IMG/VR virus record: IMGVR_UViG_2671180360_000003
Length of the DNA: 5,569 nucleotides
Source: a virus
Lineage: Duplodnaviria > Heunggongvirae > Uroviricota > Caudoviricetes
Direction: 5' to 3' (one strand)
A program made the translations under genes and the position numbers. How positions within the stretch are numbered: the stretch's first letter is position 1; every line of letters starts with the position of its first letter. Positions 1 through 5,569 of this stretch are shown here, piece by piece. The notes beneath the pieces are model-generated. The model searched no databases, had not been told where the DNA came from, and saw only the letters and a program-made list of their open reading frames with translations.

Positions 1-210
1 TCGATAAAGGTATTCAAGCCTGACACATTATGCGCTGTATCGTCGCCGTATTCCCGCATTAACCATGACCGTAGCCCGACGGGGAATTCCTTCTGCGTGA
101 GTGTGCGGGAATAATCAAAAACGATGCACACCGGGTTTTACTGTGCTGACAGACGCAGGGTTACCCTCATAGTCGCTTTTCCGGTGCGATGGTGGAAGAA
201 ACCGGGATGT

Positions 211-405
211 TCATCCATCATCACTTTGGATTGATGTATATGCTCTCTTTTCTGACGTTAGTCTCCGACGGCAGGCTTCAATGACCCAGGCTGAGAAATT
301 CCCAGACCCTTTTTGCTCAAGAGCGATGTTAATTTGTTCAATCATTTGGTTAGGAAAGCGGATGTTGCGGGTTGTTTTTCTGCGGGTTCTGTTCTTCGTT
401 GACAT
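211..405 (-). CDS. ylcI: Small 64-aa protein, probable DUF3950/ribbon-helix-helix-like prophage protein (YlcI-like)
   Basis: Complete ORF in the track (MSTKNRTRRKTTRNIRFPNQMIEQINIALEQKGSGNFSAWVIEACRRRLTSEKRAYTSIQSDDG). Basic N-terminus followed by an amphipathic segment, typical of small DNA-binding proteins. From memory it resembles the 64-aa YlcI protein that sits next to the Nu1 homologue in E. coli lambdoid prophages; the symbol is tentative and not checked by search. Confidence 0.5.
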   Translation of the reverse strand: MSTKNRTRRKTTRNIRFPNQMIEQINIALEQKGSGNFSAWVIEACRRRLTSEKRAYTSIQSDDG

Positions 406-569
406 GAGGTTGCCCCGTATTCAGTGTCGCTGATTTGTATTGTCTGAAGTTGTTTTTACGTTAAGTTGATGCAGATCAATTAATACGATACCTGCGTCAT
501 AATTAATTATTTGACGTGGTTTGATGGCGTAGATGCACGTTGTGACATGTAGATGATAATTATTATCAT

Positions 570-604
570 TTTGCGGGTCCTTTCCGGCGATCCGACAGGT
601 TACG
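570..604 (+). other. Right-arm terminus of the phage genome including a cosQ-equivalent region
   Basis: The sequence gcgggtcctttccggcgatccgacaggttacg immediately 5' of the cohesive-end sequence matches, from memory, the last ~30 bp of the lambda right end where cosQ lies. Exact cosQ boundaries cannot be set from sequence alone. Confidence 0.4.
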
Positions 605-622
605 GGGCGGCGACCTCGCGGG
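599..622 (+). other. cosN, terminase nicking site (12-nt cohesive end GGGCGGCGACCT at 605-616)
   Basis: Positions 601-646 read tacg|gggcggcgacct|cgcgggttttcgctatttatgaaaattttccgg, which matches the lambda right-end/left-end junction as I remember it (right end ...CGACAGGTTACG, left end GGGCGGCGACCTCGCGGGTTTTCGCTATTTATGAAAATTTTCCGG). Sits about 183 bp upstream of the small terminase start once one repeat copy is discounted, as in lambda. Confidence 0.85.
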
Positions 623-649
623 TTTTCGCTATTTATGAAAATTTTCCGG

Positions 650-756
650 GATCCATGTCCGGTTTCTCTGCAAGTTAACTATATGAAAAATATAAAAACA
701 GGCTGTCCGTGAACCGGACATGTGCAAAAAACGGACATGTAAACCGGACATGACCG
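650..756 (+). promoter_or_regulatory. cosB-like terminase small-subunit binding region: one inverted and three direct copies of an AACCGGACATG-like motif flanking an AT-rich probable bend/IHF site
   Basis: Motif copies: inverted catgtccgg at about 655-663; direct ccggacatg at 714-722, cggacatg at 732-739, ccggacatg at 744-752 (the last within the near-palindrome aaccggacatgaccggtt). AT-rich A-tract segment at 671-700 lies between the inverted and direct copies. Layout resembles lambda cosB (R3, I1, R2, R1), but the motif is not the lambda R sequence. Confidence 0.5.
671..700. promoter_or_regulatory. AT-rich putative bend / IHF-type site (I1-like) within cosB
   Basis: caagttaactatatgaaaaatataaaaaca is strongly AT-rich with A-tracts and sits between oppositely oriented motif copies. 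No clean WATCAANNNNTTR match found by eye, so this is by position only. Confidence 0.25.
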
Positions 757-983
757 GTTTTGTTGTGATTGTGAGGTGAGAGTTTTTGCGAGGTGAGGAG
801 TGGCTACGCAGACTGAAGTTGCCAGGCATTTAAGTCTGACCGATCGCCAGACATGAACAAAAAACAGACATGTAAACCGGACATGACCGGTTTTGTTGTG
901 ATTGTGAGGTGAGAGTTTTTGCGAGGTGAGGAGTGGCTACGCAGACTGAAGTTGCCAGGCATTTAAGTCTGACCGATCGCCAG
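717..983 (+). repeat. Tandem direct duplication, two copies of a ~133-bp unit (about 717-850 and 850-983)
   Basis: Read directly: 738-850 is identical to 871-983 (offset 133). The first ~21 bp of each unit differ at three positions (gacatgtgcaaaaaacggaca versus gacatgaacaaaaaacagaca). The unit contains motif copies, the SD-like gaggtgaggag and the first 17 codons of the small terminase gene. Confidence 0.9.
800..856 (+). pseudogene. Duplicated 5' fragment of the terminase small subunit gene (GTG start plus 17 codons, then TGA)
   Basis: In repeat copy 1 the same RBS and GTG as the real gene open a frame reading VATQTEVARHLSLTDRQT then stop (tga at 854-856), because the duplication junction follows the codon for Q17. 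Product of the duplication; expression unknown. Confidence 0.45.
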
Positions 984-1442
984 CTTCGCAGATTGCAGAA
1001 ATTGCCGGGTGCCCCGATATCGAATAAGCGAGGGCAACTGGATCTGGATGCCTGGCGCGATTTTTACATATCGTATCTGAGGAGAAGTAAAAACGATGTG
1101 CCTGATGGCGATAGCGAAGACGACTATGAGGAGAAATTGCTTATTGCCAGATGGGAACTGACAGCAGAACAGGCTGTTACACAGCAGTTAAAAAATGAGG
1201 TGTCAAAAGGAAAACTTATTGACACCGGGTTCTGTATTTTTGCCCTCAGTAAGCTGGCAATGGCGTTATCCAGTACGCTTGATTCCATCCCTTTATCCAT
1301 GCAGCGACAGTTTCCTGATTTAACACCGCGCCATCTTGACCATCTGAAAACCCTTATTGCGAAGGGGGCAAATCAGTGTGCGCGGGCAGGGGATAAATTA
1401 CCGGATTTACTCGATGAATATATCAGAGCAACAACTGAATAA
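933..1442 (+). CDS. Terminase small subunit (lambda gpNu1 family) with a divergent N-terminal winged-HTH DNA-binding domain
   Basis: ORF in track (169 aa). The C-terminal half (TGFCIFALSKLAMALSSTLDSIPLSMQRQFPDLTPRHLDHLK...LPDLLDEYI) aligns with lambda Nu1 as I recall it (ETAFCTFVLSRIAGEIASILDGLPLSVQRRFPELENRHVDFLK...IPGLLSEYI). The N-terminal ~50 aa differ from lambda but keep an HTH-like pattern. Start is GTG at 933; an in-frame TGA at 927-929 excludes an upstream start. The 3' end overlaps the large subunit start, as in lambda. SD spacing is short, so the start is less certain than the gene. Confidence 0.85.
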   Translation: MATQTEVARHLSLTDRQLRRLQKLPGAPISNKRGQLDLDAWRDFYISYLRRSKNDVPDGDSEDDYEEKLLIARWELTAEQAVTQQLKNEVSKGKLIDTGFCIFALSKLAMALSSTLDSIPLSMQRQFPDLTPRHLDHLKTLIAKGANQCARAGDKLPDLLDEYIRATTE

Positions 1443-3342
1443 TATGATGGCTGCCGTTTCGGTTGCGCTGCAGCCTCTGGTCAGGGTTGTACCAATGACG
1501 GCAGTTGAATGGGCTGATCAAAATTATTATCTGCCTAAAGAATCTTCATATGGTGAGGGAGAATGGAAAACGCTGCCATTCCAGATCGCCATTATGAACT
1601 GTATGGGTAACGACCAGGTTCGCACGGTTAACCTGATTAAATCTGCCCGTGTTGGCTATACAAAGATGTTGCTGGGGGTGGTCGGGTATTTTATTGAGCA
1701 TAAATCCCGAAACAGTCTGCTTTTTCAGCCCACGGATTCTGCCGCTGAAGATTTTATGAAGTCTCACGTGGAGGCGACGATTCGGAACGTGCCATGCCTG
1801 AAAGACCTTTCCCCATGGCTGGGTCGTAAACATCGTGACAATACTCTCACGCTGAAACGCTTTTCATCGGGCGTCGGTTTCTGGTGCCTGGGCGGCGCTG
1901 CCGCCAAAAACTACCGTGAAAAATCCGTGGACGTGGTCTGCTATGACGAACTTTCCTCGTTCGAGCCGGATGTCGAAAAAGAGGGCTCGCCAACCCTGCT
2001 GGGGGATAAGCGTATTGAGGGGTCGGTGTGGCCAAAATCCATTCGCGGCTCGACGCCTAAAATCAAAGGCACCTGCCAGATCGAAAAAGCCGCTAACGAG
2101 TCGGCGCATTTTATGCGTTTTTATGTGCCCTGCCCGCACTGTGGGGAGGAGCAGTATCTGAAATTTGGCGATGAGTCCACGCCTTTTGGGCTTAAATGGG
2201 AGAAGGACAGCCCTGAAAGTGTTTTCTACCTCTGTGAACATCATGGCTGCGTGATCCATCAGTCTGAGCTTGACCAGAGCAACGGGCGGTGGATCTGTGA
2301 AAACACGGGCATGTGGACCCGTGACGGCCTGATGTTTTTCAGCGCCCGGGGTGATGAAATTCCGCCGCCGCGCTCCATCATGTTCCATATCTGGACGGCG
2401 TACAGTCCGTTCACCACCTGGGTACAGATTGTCTATGACTGGCTGGATGCACTGAAAGATCCCAACGGCCTGAAAACCTTTGTGAACACCACGCTGGGCG
2501 AGACCTGGGAAGAGGCCGTGGGCGAAAAACTCGATCACCAGGTACTGATGGATAAGGTGGTGCGTTACACGGCGGCGGTGCCTGCCCGGGTGGTTTATCT
2601 GACGGCGGGCATTGACTCGCAGCGAAACCGTTTTGAGATGTATGTCTGGGGATGGGCTCCGGGAGAGGAAGCCTTTCTGGTGGATAAAATCATCATTATG
2701 GGGCGTCCTGATGAGGAAGAGACGCTGTTACGTGTGGATGCGGCGATCAACAAAAAATACCGCCATGCGGATGGCACCGAAATGACTATTTCCCGTGTCT
2801 GCTGGGACACCGGGGGGATCGATGGTGAAATTGTTTATCAGAGATCAAAAAAACACGGTGTTTTCCGGGTGCTGCCGGTAAAAGGCGCATCTGTCTATGG
2901 CAAGCCGGTGATCACCATGCCAAAAACCCGCAATCAGCGGGGCGTGTATCTGTGTGAAGTGGGAACGGATACCGCAAAAGAAATTCTCTATGCCCGTATG
3001 AAAGCCGATCCCACGCCTGCGGATGAAGCCACGTCGTATGCCATCCGTTTTCCTGATGATCCGGAGATTTTTTCGCAGACAGAGGCGCAGCAACTGGTGG
3101 CGGAAGAGCTGGTGGAGAAGTGGGAAAAAGGAAAGATGCGTCTGCTGTGGGATAACAAAAAGCGGCGTAACGAAGCGCTGGACTGCCTGGTGTATGCCTA
3201 CGCGGCATTACGTGTGTCCGTGCAACGCTGGCAGCTTGATCTGGCTGTACTGGCAAAATCCCGGGAAGAAGAGACGACCCGGCCAACCCTGAAAGAACTG
3301 GCAGCGAAGCTGTCCGGAGGAGTGAATGGTTACAGTCGCTGA
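1414..3342 (+). CDS. Terminase large subunit (lambda gpA family; ATPase plus endonuclease)
   Basis: Long ORF in track. From ATG 1414 the product begins MNISEQQLNN (lambda gpA begins MNISNSQVN) and is 642 aa against 641 for lambda. Near-identical blocks remembered from lambda gpA include AVEWADxNYYLPKES, KSARVGYxKMLLGV (Walker A region), GFWCLGGxAAKNYREKSVDV, GDKRIEGSVWPKSIRGSTPK, CPHCGEEQYLKFGD, HIWTAYSPFTTWVQIV, TFVNTTLGETWE, KGASVYGKPV and WDxKKRRNEALDC. The track start at 1357 would add 19 aa with no homology, so 1414 is preferred. Confidence 0.95.
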   Translation: MNISEQQLNNMMAAVSVALQPLVRVVPMTAVEWADQNYYLPKESSYGEGEWKTLPFQIAIMNCMGNDQVRTVNLIKSARVGYTKMLLGVVGYFIEHKSRNSLLFQPTDSAAEDFMKSHVEATIRNVPCLKDLSPWLGRKHRDNTLTLKRFSSGVGFWCLGGAAAKNYREKSVDVVCYDELSSFEPDVEKEGSPTLLGDKRIEGSVWPKSIRGSTPKIKGTCQIEKAANESAHFMRFYVPCPHCGEEQYLKFGDESTPFGLKWEKDSPESVFYLCEHHGCVIHQSELDQSNGRWICENTGMWTRDGLMFFSARGDEIPPPRSIMFHIWTAYSPFTTWVQIVYDWLDALKDPNGLKTFVNTTLGETWEEAVGEKLDHQVLMDKVVRYTAAVPARVVYLTAGIDSQRNRFEMYVWGWAPGEEAFLVDKIIIMGRPDEEETLLRVDAAINKKYRHADGTEMTISRVCWDTGGIDGEIVYQRSKKHGVFRVLPVKGASVYGKPVITMPKTRNQRGVYLCEVGTDTAKEILYARMKADPTPADEATSYAIRFPDDPEIFSQTEAQQLVAEELVEKWEKGKMRLLWDNKKRRNEALDCLVYAYAALRVSVQRWQLDLAVLAKSREEETTRPTLKELAAKLSGGVNGYSR

Positions 3343-3532
3343 ACTGCAGGCGCTGCGTCAGGCGCGCCTTGATTTATTAACCGGTAAACGGGTGGTGTCT
3401 GTCCAGAAAGATGGTCGCAGAATTGAATATACGGCGGCTTCTCTGGATGAGCTTAACCGGGCGATCAATGATGCGGAGTCGGTACTGGGGACAACCCGAC
3501 GTCGCCGTCGTCCGCTGGGAGTGAGGTTATGA
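3326..3532 (+). CDS. Head-tail joining / head completion protein (lambda gpW family)
   Basis: 68-aa ORF, same length as lambda gpW. LTGKRVVSVQKDGRRIEYTAASL resembles lambda gpW [23 protein letters not shown] as I recall it. SD ggagga at 3314-3319 precedes ATG 3326. Overlaps the end of the large terminase gene by 17 nt and the portal start by ATGA. Confidence 0.9.
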   Translation: MVTVAELQALRQARLDLLTGKRVVSVQKDGRRIEYTAASLDELNRAINDAESVLGTTRRRRRPLGVRL

Positions 3533-5115
3533 AACGAACGCCTGTCCTGATTGATGTGAACGGCGTTCCGCTTCGTGAGAGTCTCAGCTACAACGGGGGC
3601 GGCGCAGGATTTGGCGGGCAAATGGCGGAGTGGTTGCCACCGGCGCAGAGTGTCGATGCGGCCCTGCTGCCCGCGTTGCGTCTGGGGAATGCCCGGGCAG
3701 ATGATCTGGTGCGCAATAACGGAATAGCGGCTAATGCGGTGGCCCTGCATAAGGATCACATTGTCGGGCATATGTTTCTGATCAGCTACCGTCCGAACTG
3801 GCGCTGGCTGGGGATGCGGGAGACCGCAGCAAAAAGCTTTGTCGATGAGGTGGAGGCGGCCTGGTCGGAATACGCAGAAGGGATGTCTGGCGAGATCGAC
3901 GTGGAAGGAAAACGCACATTTACGGAGTTTATCCGTGAAGGTGTTGGCGTTCATGCGTTTAACGGCGAAATCTTTGTGCAGCCGGTCTGGGATACGGAAA
4001 CCACGCAGTTATTCCGTACGCGTTTTAAAGCCGTGAGTCCGAAACGGGTGGACACGCCAGGACACGGTATGGGGAACCGTTTTCTGCGGGCCGGGGTGGA
4101 GGTCGATCGATATGGCCGTGCCGTTGCGTACCATATCTGTGAGGATGATTTTCCTCGCTCCGGGAGTGGACGATGGGAACGGATCCCGCGTGAACTTCCC
4201 ACCGGGCGTCCGGCCATGCTGCATATTTTCGAGCCGGTGGAGGACGGGCAGACCCGTGGGGCTAATCAGTTTTACAGCGTCATGGAACGGCTGAAGATGC
4301 TGGATTCCCTGCAGGCAACACAGCTTCAGTCGGCCATTGTGAAAGCCATGTATGCAGCGACGATTGAAAGTGAACTTGATACCGAAAAGGCCTTTGAATA
4401 TATCGCCGGCGCGCCACAGGAGCAGAAGGATAATCCGCTTATTAATATTCTGGAGAAGTTCTCCAGCTGGTATGACACGAATAACGTGACACTGGGCGGT
4501 GTCAAAATTCCGCACCTTTTCCCTGGTGATGATCTGAAACTACAGACTGCGCAGGATTCAGACAATGGATTTTCTGCGCTTGAACAGGCGCTGCTGCGGT
4601 ATATCGCCGCCGGTCTTGGCGTTTCCTACGAACAGTTGTCCCGTGATTACTCGAAGGTCAGTTATTCAAGTGCCAGGGCCTCTGCCAATGAGTCGTGGCG
4701 CTATTTTATGGGGCGGCGAAAATTTATTGCGGCCCGGCTGGCCACGCAGATGTTTTCCTGCTGGCTGGAAGAGGCACTTCTTCGGGGGATTATCCGTCCG
4801 CCACGGGCGCGTTTTGATTTTTATCAGGCGCGATCAGCCTGGTCACGGGCAGAGTGGATTGGTGCCGGAAGAATGGCCATTGACGGGCTCAAGGAGGTTC
4901 AGGAATCGGTGATGCGCATTGAGGCCGGACTGAGCACGTATGAGAAAGAGCTGGCGCTGATGGGCGAGGATTATCAGGACATTTTCCGCCAGCAGGTCAG
5001 GGAATCTGCACAAAAAGCCGGACTCTCACGTCCGGTGTGGATAGCGCAGGCGTATGAGCAGCAGATAGCGGAGAGTCGCAGGCCGGAAGAGGAGACAACA
5101 CCACGTGAGACGTAA
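3529..5115 (+). CDS. Portal protein (lambda gpB family)
   Basis: 528-aa ORF (lambda gpB is 533 aa). Correct position after gpW in the conserved lambdoid order Nu1-A-W-B-C, with an ATGA overlap to the gpW stop. The N-terminus MKRTPVLIDVNGVPL... fits my recollection of lambda gpB. Confidence 0.93.
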   Translation: MKRTPVLIDVNGVPLRESLSYNGGGAGFGGQMAEWLPPAQSVDAALLPALRLGNARADDLVRNNGIAANAVALHKDHIVGHMFLISYRPNWRWLGMRETAAKSFVDEVEAAWSEYAEGMSGEIDVEGKRTFTEFIREGVGVHAFNGEIFVQPVWDTETTQLFRTRFKAVSPKRVDTPGHGMGNRFLRAGVEVDRYGRAVAYHICEDDFPRSGSGRWERIPRELPTGRPAMLHIFEPVEDGQTRGANQFYSVMERLKMLDSLQATQLQSAIVKAMYAATIESELDTEKAFEYIAGAPQEQKDNPLINILEKFSSWYDTNNVTLGGVKIPHLFPGDDLKLQTAQDSDNGFSALEQALLRYIAAGLGVSYEQLSRDYSKVSYSSARASANESWRYFMGRRKFIAARLATQMFSCWLEEALLRGIIRPPRARFDFYQARSAWSRAEWIGAGRMAIDGLKEVQESVMRIEAGLSTYEKELALMGEDYQDIFRQQVRESAQKAGLSRPVWIAQAYEQQIAESRRPEEETTPRET

Positions 5116-5569
5116 TCTTTCACACATTATTGCCGCAGCATTCAATGAACCGCTGCTTCTGGAGCCCGCCTATGCGCGGGTTTTCTTTTGCGCGCTCGGG
5201 CGCGAGATGGGGGCAGCAAGTCTTTCGGTACCACAACAGCAGGTACAGCTTGATGCTCCCGGAATGCTGGCTGAAACAGACGAGTACATGGCCGGAGGTA
5301 AACGACCGGCCCGTGTTTACCGGGTGGTGAACGGTATTGCGGTACTGCCGGTGACCGGCACGCTGGTGCACCGGCTGGGGGGGATGCGGCCATTTTCCGG
5401 AATGACTGGCTATGACGGCATTGTCGCCTGTCTTCAGCAGGCAATGGCAGATAGCCAGGTGCGGGGCATACTGCTGGACATTGACAGTCCGGGCGGGCAG
5501 GCCGCCGGCGCGTTTGACTGCGCTGACATGATTTACCGCCTCCGTCAGCAGAAGCCGGTCTGGGCACTG
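5105..5569 (+). CDS. Head maturation protease / scaffold (lambda gpC family, S49 ClpP-like peptidase), 5' partial, continues past the window end
   Basis: Not in the ORF track because there is no stop inside the window. Frame open from 5069 to 5569. Translation (V)RRNLSHIIAAAFNEPLLLEPAYARVFFCALG...VVNGIAVLPVTGTLV...GMTGYDGI...ILLDIDSPGGQAAGAFDCADMIYRLRQQKPVWAL parallels lambda gpC (ELRNLPHIASMAFNEPLMLEPAYARVFF...GIAVLPVSGTLV...GMTGYNGI...LLDMDTPGG..AGAFDCADII...KPVWAL). Proposed start GTG at 5105 with gaggag 12-17 nt upstream; it overlaps the last 11 nt of the portal gene. The exact start is uncertain. Confidence 0.85.
   Translation, partial: MRRNLSHIIAAAFNEPLLLEPAYARVFFCALGREMGAASLSVPQQQVQLDAPGMLAETDEYMAGGKRPARVYRVVNGIAVLPVTGTLVHRLGGMRPFSGMTGYDGIVACLQQAMADSQVRGILLDIDSPGGQAAGAFDCADMIYRLRQQKPVWAL

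What the first reader, a model, noticed from the sequence alone, without database searches (positions are those of the whole stretch)
717..983. Tandem ~133-bp duplication spanning cosB motifs and the 5' end of the terminase small subunit gene
Two adjacent copies of a ~133-bp unit sit between cosN and the small terminase gene. The last ~112 bp of each copy are identical; the three mismatches cluster in the first ~21 bp of the unit, where they degrade two motif copies in copy 2 (ccggacatg to ccagacatg, cggacatg to cagacatg). The junction at 850/851 lies at a short gacatg/ccag microhomology. This puts cosN ~317 bp from the gene start instead of the ~183 bp of a single-copy layout, adds intact and degenerate binding-motif copies, and duplicates the translation start. 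It is either a real recent rearrangement of the packaging-initiation region, which could alter terminase assembly at cos, or an assembly artefact at a repeat-rich locus.
Basis: seen in the sequence. Interest (0 to 1): 0.65.

Follow-up and report, generated by a model that had tools for sequence, protein, structure and literature searches.

The report
Scaffold-join artefact, not cos duplication
The apparent 133-bp tandem duplication next to the phage packaging site is almost certainly two overlapping contig ends, from two slightly different prophage copies, that a draft assembly placed end to end across an unsequenced "N"; the DNA underneath is an ordinary single-copy lambda-like cos/terminase region.

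Summary
The repeat is in the window as described: 717-849 and 850-982, 133-bp period, three mismatches. It is very probably not real DNA.

- **Unsequenced junction.** The window is the whole 5,569-bp contig CYDK01000072.1 of draft assembly GCA_001285005.1. The public record differs from the window at two bases, N at 851 and N at 5010, where the window reads 'A'. Base 851 is the duplication junction.
- **Two known alleles.** The three differences are the differences between two natural single-copy alleles. Copy 1 matches allele A and copy 2 matches allele B. Both alleles occur in separate prophages of one complete genome.
- **Single copy fits.** With 850-982 removed, the window is 100% identical to a complete-genome prophage over 1-2213.
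- **No other occurrence.** The junction is absent from 5,426 complete E. coli genomes, IMG/VR, GTDB representative genomes and JGI metagenomes. All 76 IMG/VR relatives with enough upstream sequence are single copy.
- **Second N.** It replaces 7 polymorphic bases with one, so Ns in this record are scaffold joins.

The real feature is a lambda-like cosQ-cosN, a non-lambda cosB built on CGGACATG motifs, then TerS, TerL, gpW and portal genes.

The parts
1..850 (.). Contig piece X of the scaffold, carrying allele A. It ends 117 nt after the last allele-specific base (733).
   Evidence: The public record has N at 851. Positions 1-849 plus 983-2213 are 100% identical to the single-copy prophage of FDAARGOS_1059 (L003).
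851..851 (.). Placeholder base: N in record CYDK01000072.1, 'A' in the window. This is the scaffold join and the apparent duplication junction.
   Evidence: L004 differs from the window at only two positions, 851 and 5010, both N against A.
852..5009 (.). Contig piece Y. Its first 15 nt carry the allele-B bases (856, 857, 866). Its first 132 nt overlap the last 132 nt of X with 3 mismatches.
   Evidence: The only end-overlap of X and Y with 5% mismatches or fewer is 132 nt with 3 mismatches. Allele B is seen in L002 and L009.
717..849 (+). 'Copy 1' of the 133-bp unit. This is the genuine cosB-to-terS-start region of the allele-A prophage.
850..982 (+). 'Copy 2' of the 133-bp unit. It is the same region repeated because Y overlaps X, and most likely does not exist as extra DNA.
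800..856 (+). 18-codon ORF (VATQTEVARHLSLTDRQT*). It is the true start of terS, cut off by the artefactual join and running through the placeholder base.
   Evidence: Translation. In single-copy relatives terS starts at this GTG.
194..649 (+). Segment 96% identical to joined lambda cos: lambda 48092-48502 followed by 1-45. Similarity stops just right of cosN.
   Evidence: Local alignment to NC_001416.
575..581 (+). GGGTCCT at the position of lambda cosQ (lambda 48473-48479).
   Evidence: The sequence is present and the position follows from the alignment. The identity of cosQ as this heptamer is from my own knowledge.
605..616 (+). The cosN cohesive-end 12-mer GGGCGGCGACCT, identical to lambda.
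654..661 (-). Inverted CGGACATG motif, 50-57 bp into the left end, where lambda has R3. It is invariant in 28 distinct relatives.
715..752 (+). Three direct CGGACATG motifs (715-722, 732-739, 745-752). The first is nearly invariant, the middle one is variable and the third is invariant among relatives. These are the presumed TerS binding sites (cosB).
933..1442 (+). Small terminase subunit gene (169 aa, Pfam Phage_Nu1). In the real single-copy layout its start is the GTG at 800.
   Evidence: The protein is WP_000235436.1 in L001, L002, L003 and L009.
1414..3342 (+). Large terminase subunit gene (642 aa, GpA_ATPase plus GpA_nuclease).
3326..3532 (+). gpW head-tail joining protein gene.
3529..5115 (+). 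Portal gene (Phage_portal_2). It reads as 528 aa here and 530 aa in relatives because of the second scaffold join.
5010..5010 (.). Second placeholder base (N in the record). It stands for 7 polymorphic nt: AGAGCGG in L003, TGAGCGA in L005.
211..405 (-). YlcI/YnfO (DUF3950) gene upstream of cos.

Best explanation
The 133-bp 'tandem duplication' is a scaffolding artefact in a short-read draft assembly. The source genome most likely carries at least two lambdoid prophages that share this packaging module but differ just upstream of it.

One contig (X, 1-850) follows the allele-A prophage and ends 117 nt into the shared sequence. The next contig (Y, 852 onward) starts in allele-B sequence, 15 nt before the point where the two alleles become identical.

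X and Y therefore truly overlap by 132 nt with 3 mismatches. Because the overlap is not exact, the pipeline did not merge them. It placed them end to end with a single N, which the window shows as 'A'. Read straight through, the overlap looks like a two-copy repeat of period 132 + 1.

Shown here: the N at the join, the allele identity of each copy, the single-copy state of all relatives, and the wrong length of the second N. Inferred: which assembler or scaffolder did this, and that the source genome holds both alleles.

The underlying biology is an ordinary single-copy cos region. TerS would bind the CGGACATG sites about 50-150 bp right of cosN and position TerL to nick cosN, as in lambda.
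For: (1) The window is contig CYDK01000072.1 of GCA_001285005.1. The record has only two Ns, at 851 and 5010, and these are the only differences from the window.

(2) Position 851 is the first base after the junction. Two Ns in 5,569 positions falling there by chance has a probability of about 1e-3.

(3) The second N replaces 7 nt that are polymorphic between relatives. Ns in this record therefore mark unresolved joins of unreliable length at sites where prophage copies differ.

(4) The tail of X and the head of Y overlap by 132 nt with 3 mismatches, and no other overlap exists.

(5) All three mismatches coincide with the A/B allele differences seen in single-copy prophages. Both alleles co-reside in one complete chromosome, strain 2011C-4251, as L001 and L009.

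(6) The window minus 850-982 is identical to L003 over 1-2213.

(7) A contig from a second assembly that encodes the identical large terminase (CYED01000080.1, L005) starts exactly at the 734/867 equivalent. That is the first base after the last A/B difference, as expected where two alleles merge in an assembly graph. It then runs on for 4.7 kb without a break.

(8) The junction is absent from 5,426 complete E. coli genomes, IMG/VR, GTDB representative genomes and JGI metagenomes. No tandem pair of terS starts exists in IMG/VR or the metagenomes.

(9) Of 76 IMG/VR instances, cosN-to-terS spacing (measured to the terS search pattern, which begins 2 nt inside the gene) is 184-186 in 75 and 168 in 1, never about 318. 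The PhiR12 phages deposited in GenBank are also single copy.

(10) Assemblers are known to insert gaps between overlapping contigs and to leave negative gaps (PMC5368935; PMC8110574).
Against: No reads were available, so the absence of junction-spanning reads is not shown.

A real tandem duplication with a 117-nt identical core would also create a repeat node. It could also cause a contig break at 850, because the sequence branches there.

The assembly method of this record is not known to me. A search for the accessions in the literature found nothing.

The tool reports '2 samples with this contig'. If these are two independent isolates, that would weakly favour a real structure, although clonal isolates run through one pipeline would repeat the artefact.

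The exact contig end positions are not fully explained by a simple k-mer model. The end of X at 850 would need k = 117 or 118.
Confidence: 0.9

Rival explanations
1. A real hybrid tandem duplication. Illegitimate recombination or a replication template switch occurred between two co-resident prophages. It joined terS codon 17 of an allele-A phage to the first cosB motif of an allele-B phage at a 1-nt microhomology. The result is cosN, cosB(A), an 18-codon terS stub, cosB(B) and then full terS. The assembler could not close one base at the junction.
For: The repeat is present in the deposited scaffold order. A real duplication would also create a branch at 850/983 and could break contigs there. 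Both parental alleles occur together in real genomes, so substrates for such an event exist.
Against: The junction itself is an N. No other genome or contig anywhere has the join.

Downstream of 866 the window follows the allele-A relative L003 exactly to 2213. The allele-B relatives differ from 1217 or 1361 onward. A real event would therefore need a second crossover or an unseen donor.

The other N in the record demonstrably misrepresents the sequence. The L005 contig shows no branch at the 983 equivalent.
Confidence: 0.07
2. A recent simple tandem duplication within one phage, followed by three point mutations that inactivated the extra binding motifs.
For: The mismatches cluster in the motif-bearing first 17 nt of the unit.
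Against: All three 'mutations' reproduce a pre-existing, very common allele: TG>AA and G>A, found in 28 of 76 IMG/VR relatives, in L002 and in L009. Three independent mutations hitting exactly these states is implausible. The supposed fourth change (ccGg to ccAg) is simply the terS codon CAG at the join. The junction is an N.
Confidence: 0.01
3. The two-copy layout is a normal, conserved cosB architecture of this phage group.
For: None found.
Against: All 40 best complete-genome matches span 408 bp for the 541-bp query, which is single copy. Of 76 IMG/VR instances, 75 show spacing of 184-186 and one shows 168. No tandem pair of terS starts was found.
Confidence: 0.005

Closest known systems
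Unmerged overlapping contig ends at a scaffold gap ('negative gap' flanked by duplicated sequence)
   Same: A single N lies exactly at the join. The sequence on the two sides overlaps by 132 nt at 97.7% identity. The locus is multi-copy in related genomes: a median of 2 and up to 8 places per complete E. coli genome that has it. A second N in the same record misstates the gap length. Gaps placed between overlapping contigs and negative gaps are described in PMC5368935 and PMC8110574.
   Different: The assembler and scaffolder of this record were not identified. The rule that some scaffolders write one 'n' for an overlap they cannot merge is from my own knowledge and was not verified here.
Bacteriophage lambda cos (cosQ-cosN-cosB) with gpNu1/gpA terminase
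   Same: Window 194-649 is 96% identical to lambda's joined ends, including the identical 12-nt cohesive end and the GGGTCCT at the cosQ position. The gene order is Nu1-family TerS, GpA-family TerL, gpW, portal. An inverted motif sits where lambda R3 lies, followed by direct motifs before the terS start. cosN-to-terS spacing is 184 bp, against 178 bp in lambda, where nu1 starts at bp 191.
   Different: Similarity to lambda ends at lambda bp 45. cosB is unrelated in sequence, with CGGACATG motifs instead of lambda R sites. No IHF consensus with one mismatch or fewer occurs between the motifs. The N-terminal 60 or so residues of TerS do not align with gpNu1; only residues 73-164 align, at 46%.
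Alternative cosB/TerS packaging specificities of lambda-like phages (21, N15)
   Same: The mosaic principle is the same as that described for lambda against 21: shared cosQ/cosN with a different cosB and a different TerS DNA-binding domain (PMC4669245).
   Different: TerS here matches 21 gp1 and N15 gp1 only in the C-terminal two thirds, at 40-43%. It belongs to neither type. No experimental work on this cosB type was found in the papers read.

Membership tests
Genuine tandem duplication | The novel junction is sequenced as one continuous stretch | tested here: not met
   The public record has N at 851, the first base after the join.
Genuine tandem duplication | The copies are identical or differ by new mutations, not by pre-existing alleles | tested here: not met
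   All three differences equal the allele A/B polymorphisms of single-copy prophages.
Genuine tandem duplication | The junction recurs in related genomes or independent assemblies | tested here: not met
   There were 0 hits in 5,426 complete E. coli genomes, IMG/VR, GTDB representative genomes and JGI metagenomes.
Genuine tandem duplication | Reads or PCR products span both copies | not testable with these tools
   No read data or wet-lab access.
Scaffold-join artefact (overlapping contig ends not merged) | A gap character sits exactly at the repeat junction | tested here: met
   N at 851. The record has only 2 Ns in 5,569 positions.
Scaffold-join artefact (overlapping contig ends not merged) | The sequence left of the gap overlaps the sequence right of it, with small differences that block an exact merge | tested here: met
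   A 132-nt overlap with 3 mismatches, all within the first 15 nt of the right piece.
Scaffold-join artefact (overlapping contig ends not merged) | Removing the overlap restores a sequence known from finished genomes | tested here: met
   100% identity to L003 over window 1-2213 after deleting 850-982.
Scaffold-join artefact (overlapping contig ends not merged) | The locus is multi-copy with allelic variants in the source genome | tested here: inconclusive
   Not checked in the source assembly itself. Related complete genomes hold 2-8 copies and can hold both alleles. The L005 contig breaks exactly at the allele merge point.
Scaffold-join artefact (overlapping contig ends not merged) | The assembly pipeline is known to write single-N joins | not tested
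   The assembly method of GCA_001285005.1 was not found.
Lambda-like cos site | 12-nt cohesive-end sequence and flanks homologous to lambda cosN | tested here: met
   GGGCGGCGACCT at 605-616. The alignment is 96% identical over 456 bp, and window 594-649 is identical to lambda.
Lambda-like cos site | A Nu1-family TerS and a GpA-family TerL are encoded immediately downstream | tested here: met
   PF07471, PF05876 and PF20454.
Lambda-like cos site | Repeated TerS-binding (R) sites between cosN and terS, one of them inverted near cosN | tested here: inconclusive
   Four exact CGGACATG copies lie within 654-752, one of them inverted; the only other exact copy in the window, at 878-885, is the artefactual repeat of 745-752. 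Three of the four are conserved in relatives. Binding was not tested.
Lambda-like cos site | An IHF site (I1) between R3 and R2 | tested here: not met
   WATCAANNNNTTR has no hit with one mismatch or fewer in 650-720. Only an A/T-rich spacer is present.

The most novel reading that the evidence does not exclude
The join is real. An illegitimate recombination or template switch between two co-resident lambdoid prophages produced a hybrid two-copy cosB with a terS stub. The structure would be cosN, cosB of allele A, an 18-codon stub, cosB of allele B and then terS. It would be caught in a single isolate before selection removed it.
Probability: 0.06. Interest if true: 0.35.

Novelty: not a real feature. 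Interest (0 to 1): 0.05.

Why it matters
As a biological finding it does not matter. The packaging-initiation region is the usual single-copy one, found in more than a thousand complete E. coli genomes.

It matters as a data-quality warning in two ways.

- **Hidden gap characters.** The window presents gap characters of the source record as ordinary 'A' bases. A sequence-only reader therefore cannot see scaffold joins.
- **A recognisable artefact class.** Single-N joins in multi-copy prophage regions of draft assemblies create false tandem duplications (850-982 here) and false small deletions (6 nt in the portal gene at 5010).

If the duplication were real, it would be a modest curiosity about cos-region plasticity. 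The cosN-proximal cosB copy is intact, so packaging would probably be unaffected.

Tried and rejected
- **Junction searches.** I searched for the junction in complete E. coli genomes with a 44-mer. I searched for a 22-mer in IMG/VR, GTDB representative genomes and JGI metagenomes. Nothing was found.
- **Any tandem pair of terS 5' ends.** A search with spacing 95-125 in IMG/VR and the metagenomes found nothing.
- **A natural prophage with the allele-A left flank and allele-B bases.** Such a prophage would have allowed a simple unequal exchange between near-identical phages. None exists in complete genomes. The best hits are allele A, differing from the query by the three allele-B bases (99.6% identity).
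- **Literature on the assembly.** A search for the assembly accessions found no papers.
- **Published statement of the 'single n for unmerged overlap' rule.** Only general statements about gaps between overlapping contigs and negative gaps were found.
- **Explaining the contig ends with a k-mer model.** The end of X at 850 would imply k = 117 or 118. The start of Y at 852 follows a position (the 718 equivalent) that is polymorphic in some relatives (CCGGGCATG in L040 and L046). This is suggestive but not conclusive, so it is not used as evidence.
- **IHF consensus scan of cosB.** No hit.
- **Sequence search of TerS against solved structures.** No meaningful hit.
- **Rejected: post-duplication mutations degrading the motifs.** The changes are pre-existing alleles.
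- **Rejected: a conserved two-copy architecture.** All relatives are single copy.

Full report
**1. The observation**

Tandem Repeats Finder reports one long array at 717-983: period 133, 2.0 copies, 97% matches, score 513. Direct comparison of 717-849 with 850-982 gives three mismatches: 723/856 T>A, 724/857 G>A and 733/866 G>A. One further shared base (G at 850 and 983) extends the match. The identical core is therefore 117 nt (734-850 = 867-983).

The unit contains the last part of a motif-rich region and the first 17 codons of an ORF. In copy 1 that ORF (GTG at 800) runs into a stop after 18 codons. In copy 2 (GTG at 933) it continues as a 169-aa protein.

**2. Context**

Window 194-649 is 96% identical to lambda's joined ends, that is lambda 48092-48502 followed by 1-45. 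This stretch includes the identical cohesive-end 12-mer GGGCGGCGACCT (605-616) and GGGTCCT at the cosQ position (575-581). Similarity stops immediately to the right of cosN.

Downstream lie four genes:
- a Phage_Nu1-family small terminase (933-1442);
- a GpA-type large terminase (1414-3342);
- gpW (3326-3532);
- a portal gene (3529-5115).

A DUF3950/YlcI gene lies upstream on the other strand. Between cosN and terS there are four exact CGGACATG copies in the single-copy layout: 654-661 inverted, then 715-722, 732-739 and 745-752 direct. The only other exact copy in the window, at 878-885, is the artefactual repeat of 745-752.

**3. Relatives are single copy**

The 541-bp region 560-1100 matches 4,594 of 5,426 complete E. 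coli genomes. In every one of the 40 best records the match spans 408 bp in two pieces, which is single copy. The five phage records that hold the region (PhiR12_1, _2, _2_star, _4, _5) are also single copy.

A 44-mer centred on the junction finds nothing in the complete genomes. A 22-mer across the junction finds nothing in IMG/VR, GTDB representative genomes or JGI metagenomes. No tandem pair of terS 5' ends at any spacing of 95-125 occurs in IMG/VR or the metagenomes.

Among 76 IMG/VR instances with enough upstream sequence, the distance from the cohesive end to the terS search pattern, which begins 2 nt inside the gene, is 184-186 in 75 and 168 in one. It is never about 318.

**4. The two copies are two known alleles**

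Aligning both copies with single-copy prophages gives a clear pattern:
- Copy 1 is identical to the allele in L001 and L003 (…CCGGACATGTGCAAAAAACGGACATG…, 'allele A').
- The three deviating bases of copy 2 are exactly those of L002 and L009 (…CCGGACATGAACAAAAAACAGACATG…, 'allele B').

Allele B is the commonest in IMG/VR (28 of 76); allele A is rarer (4 of 76).

With 850-982 removed, the window is 100% identical to the FDAARGOS_1059 prophage (L003) from 1 to 2213. Both alleles occur in different prophages of one complete chromosome, strain 2011C-4251, as L001 and L009. No prophage with an allele-A left flank and allele-B bases exists in the complete genomes.

**5. The decisive result**

An exact-protein lookup of the large terminase shows that the window is the entire contig CYDK01000072.1 of draft assembly GCA_001285005.1. 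The record differs from the window at exactly two positions: 851 and 5010 are N in the record and 'A' in the window.

Position 851 is the first base after the junction, so the junction was never determined as continuous sequence. At 5010 the single N stands for 7 nt that are polymorphic among relatives (AGAGCGG in L003, TGAGCGA in L005). This shows that Ns in this record are scaffold joins of unreliable length placed where prophage copies differ.

Treating the Ns as joins gives three pieces: X = 1-850, Y = 852-5009 and Z = 5011-5569. The tail of X and the head of Y overlap by 132 nt with 3 mismatches, and no other overlap exists. Hence 132 + 1 N gives the 133-bp period.

A contig from a second assembly that encodes the identical large terminase (CYED01000080.1, L005) begins exactly at the 734/867 equivalent. 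That is the first base after the last A/B difference, and the contig then runs on unbroken. This is the behaviour expected when two alleles merge in an assembly graph. It shows no branch at the 983 equivalent.

**6. Explanation**

The most likely history has four steps.
1. The isolate carries at least two prophages that share this module.
2. The allele-A branch was assembled as X, ending inside the shared sequence.
3. The main path Y began a few bases inside allele-B sequence.
4. Paired reads linked X to Y with a negative distance. The imperfect overlap could not be merged, and a single N was written.

Gaps placed between overlapping contigs and negative gaps are documented behaviours of assemblers (PMC5368935; PMC8110574). 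That particular scaffolders write a single 'n' in this situation is from my own knowledge. The pipeline used for this record is unknown.

I put this explanation at about 0.9. The main rival is a real hybrid duplication made by illegitimate recombination between co-resident prophages, with one unresolved base. It cannot be excluded without reads. It would need a second exchange, because downstream of 866 the window follows allele-A relatives and not allele-B relatives. It has no support from any other sequence. I put it at about 0.06-0.07.

Post-duplication mutation and a conserved two-copy architecture are effectively refuted.

**7. What is really there, compared with known systems**

The real feature is a lambda-like cos with the same cosQ/cosN and a different cosB. 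Across 28 distinct relatives, the inverted motif at 654-661 and the third direct motif (745-752) are invariant. The first direct motif is nearly so, and the middle one is variable. The inverted motif sits at bp 50-57 of the left end, where lambda R3 lies.

The layout resembles lambda's R3-spacer-R2-R1. However, no IHF consensus is found in the spacer.

TerS aligns with lambda Nu1, 21 gp1 and N15 gp1 only over residues 64-166 or so, at 40-47% identity. The N-terminal DNA-binding part has no sequence match to any solved structure. The literature read here documents only the lambda, 21 and N15 specificities (PMC4669245). This widespread E. coli prophage type may be an uncharacterised further specificity. 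That is a side observation and not part of the finding.

**8. Verdict**

The repeat is in the text of the window but is not a real feature of the DNA. Interest is low. The practical lesson is that N-to-A substitution in the window hid two scaffold joins. These produced a false duplication at 850-982 and a false 6-nt deletion in the portal gene at 5010.

Noticed in passing
window 5010 (portal gene 3529-5115): The second base that is N in the public record but 'A' in the window. It replaces 7 nt that are polymorphic in relatives (AGAGCGG or TGAGCGA). The portal ORF therefore reads 528 aa instead of 530 aa. The apparent in-frame 6-nt deletion is an artefact.
   Followed up: yes
window 650-760 and 933-1120: cosB is built from CGGACATG motifs, one inverted at the lambda-R3 position and three direct. 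The first 60 or so residues of TerS match neither lambda Nu1, 21 gp1 nor N15 gp1, nor any solved structure by sequence. The C-terminal two thirds are 40-47% identical to those proteins. The papers read list only the lambda, 21 and N15 packaging specificities. This very common E. coli prophage type may be an uncharacterised fourth.
   Followed up: partly
window 649/650: A sharp mosaic boundary. Identity to lambda (96% over 456 bp) ends at lambda bp 45, directly after cosN and before the first TerS-site motif.
   Followed up: yes
window 732-739 and relatives L010-L089: The middle direct motif is highly polymorphic among relatives (CGGACATG, CAGACATG, TAGACATG, TGGACATG, TAGATATG, TAGACACT). The inverted and third direct motifs are invariant. 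This suggests the middle copy is not under the same constraint.
   Followed up: partly
L001 3722-5636 and L002 3565-5492: The large terminase gene is annotated as a frameshifted pseudogene in these two closely related complete-genome prophages, and the portal gene is also frameshifted in L002. In the window and in L003 terL is intact. Many copies of this module are decaying prophages.
   Followed up: no
L051 (IMGVR_UViG_2695420739_000008) 2094-2147 and 7556-7609: One 7,991-bp IMG/VR contig holds two copies of the terS 5' end, 5.46 kb apart on the same strand. This could be adjacent prophage modules or another assembly problem.
   Followed up: no
L005 (CYED01000080.1) position 1: A contig from a second assembly that encodes the identical large terminase starts exactly at the first base after the last A/B allele difference (the equivalent of window 734/867). 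It carries TGAGCGA where the window has its second N.
   Followed up: yes
window 1414-1442: terS and terL overlap by 29 nt, as in the annotated relatives.
   Followed up: no
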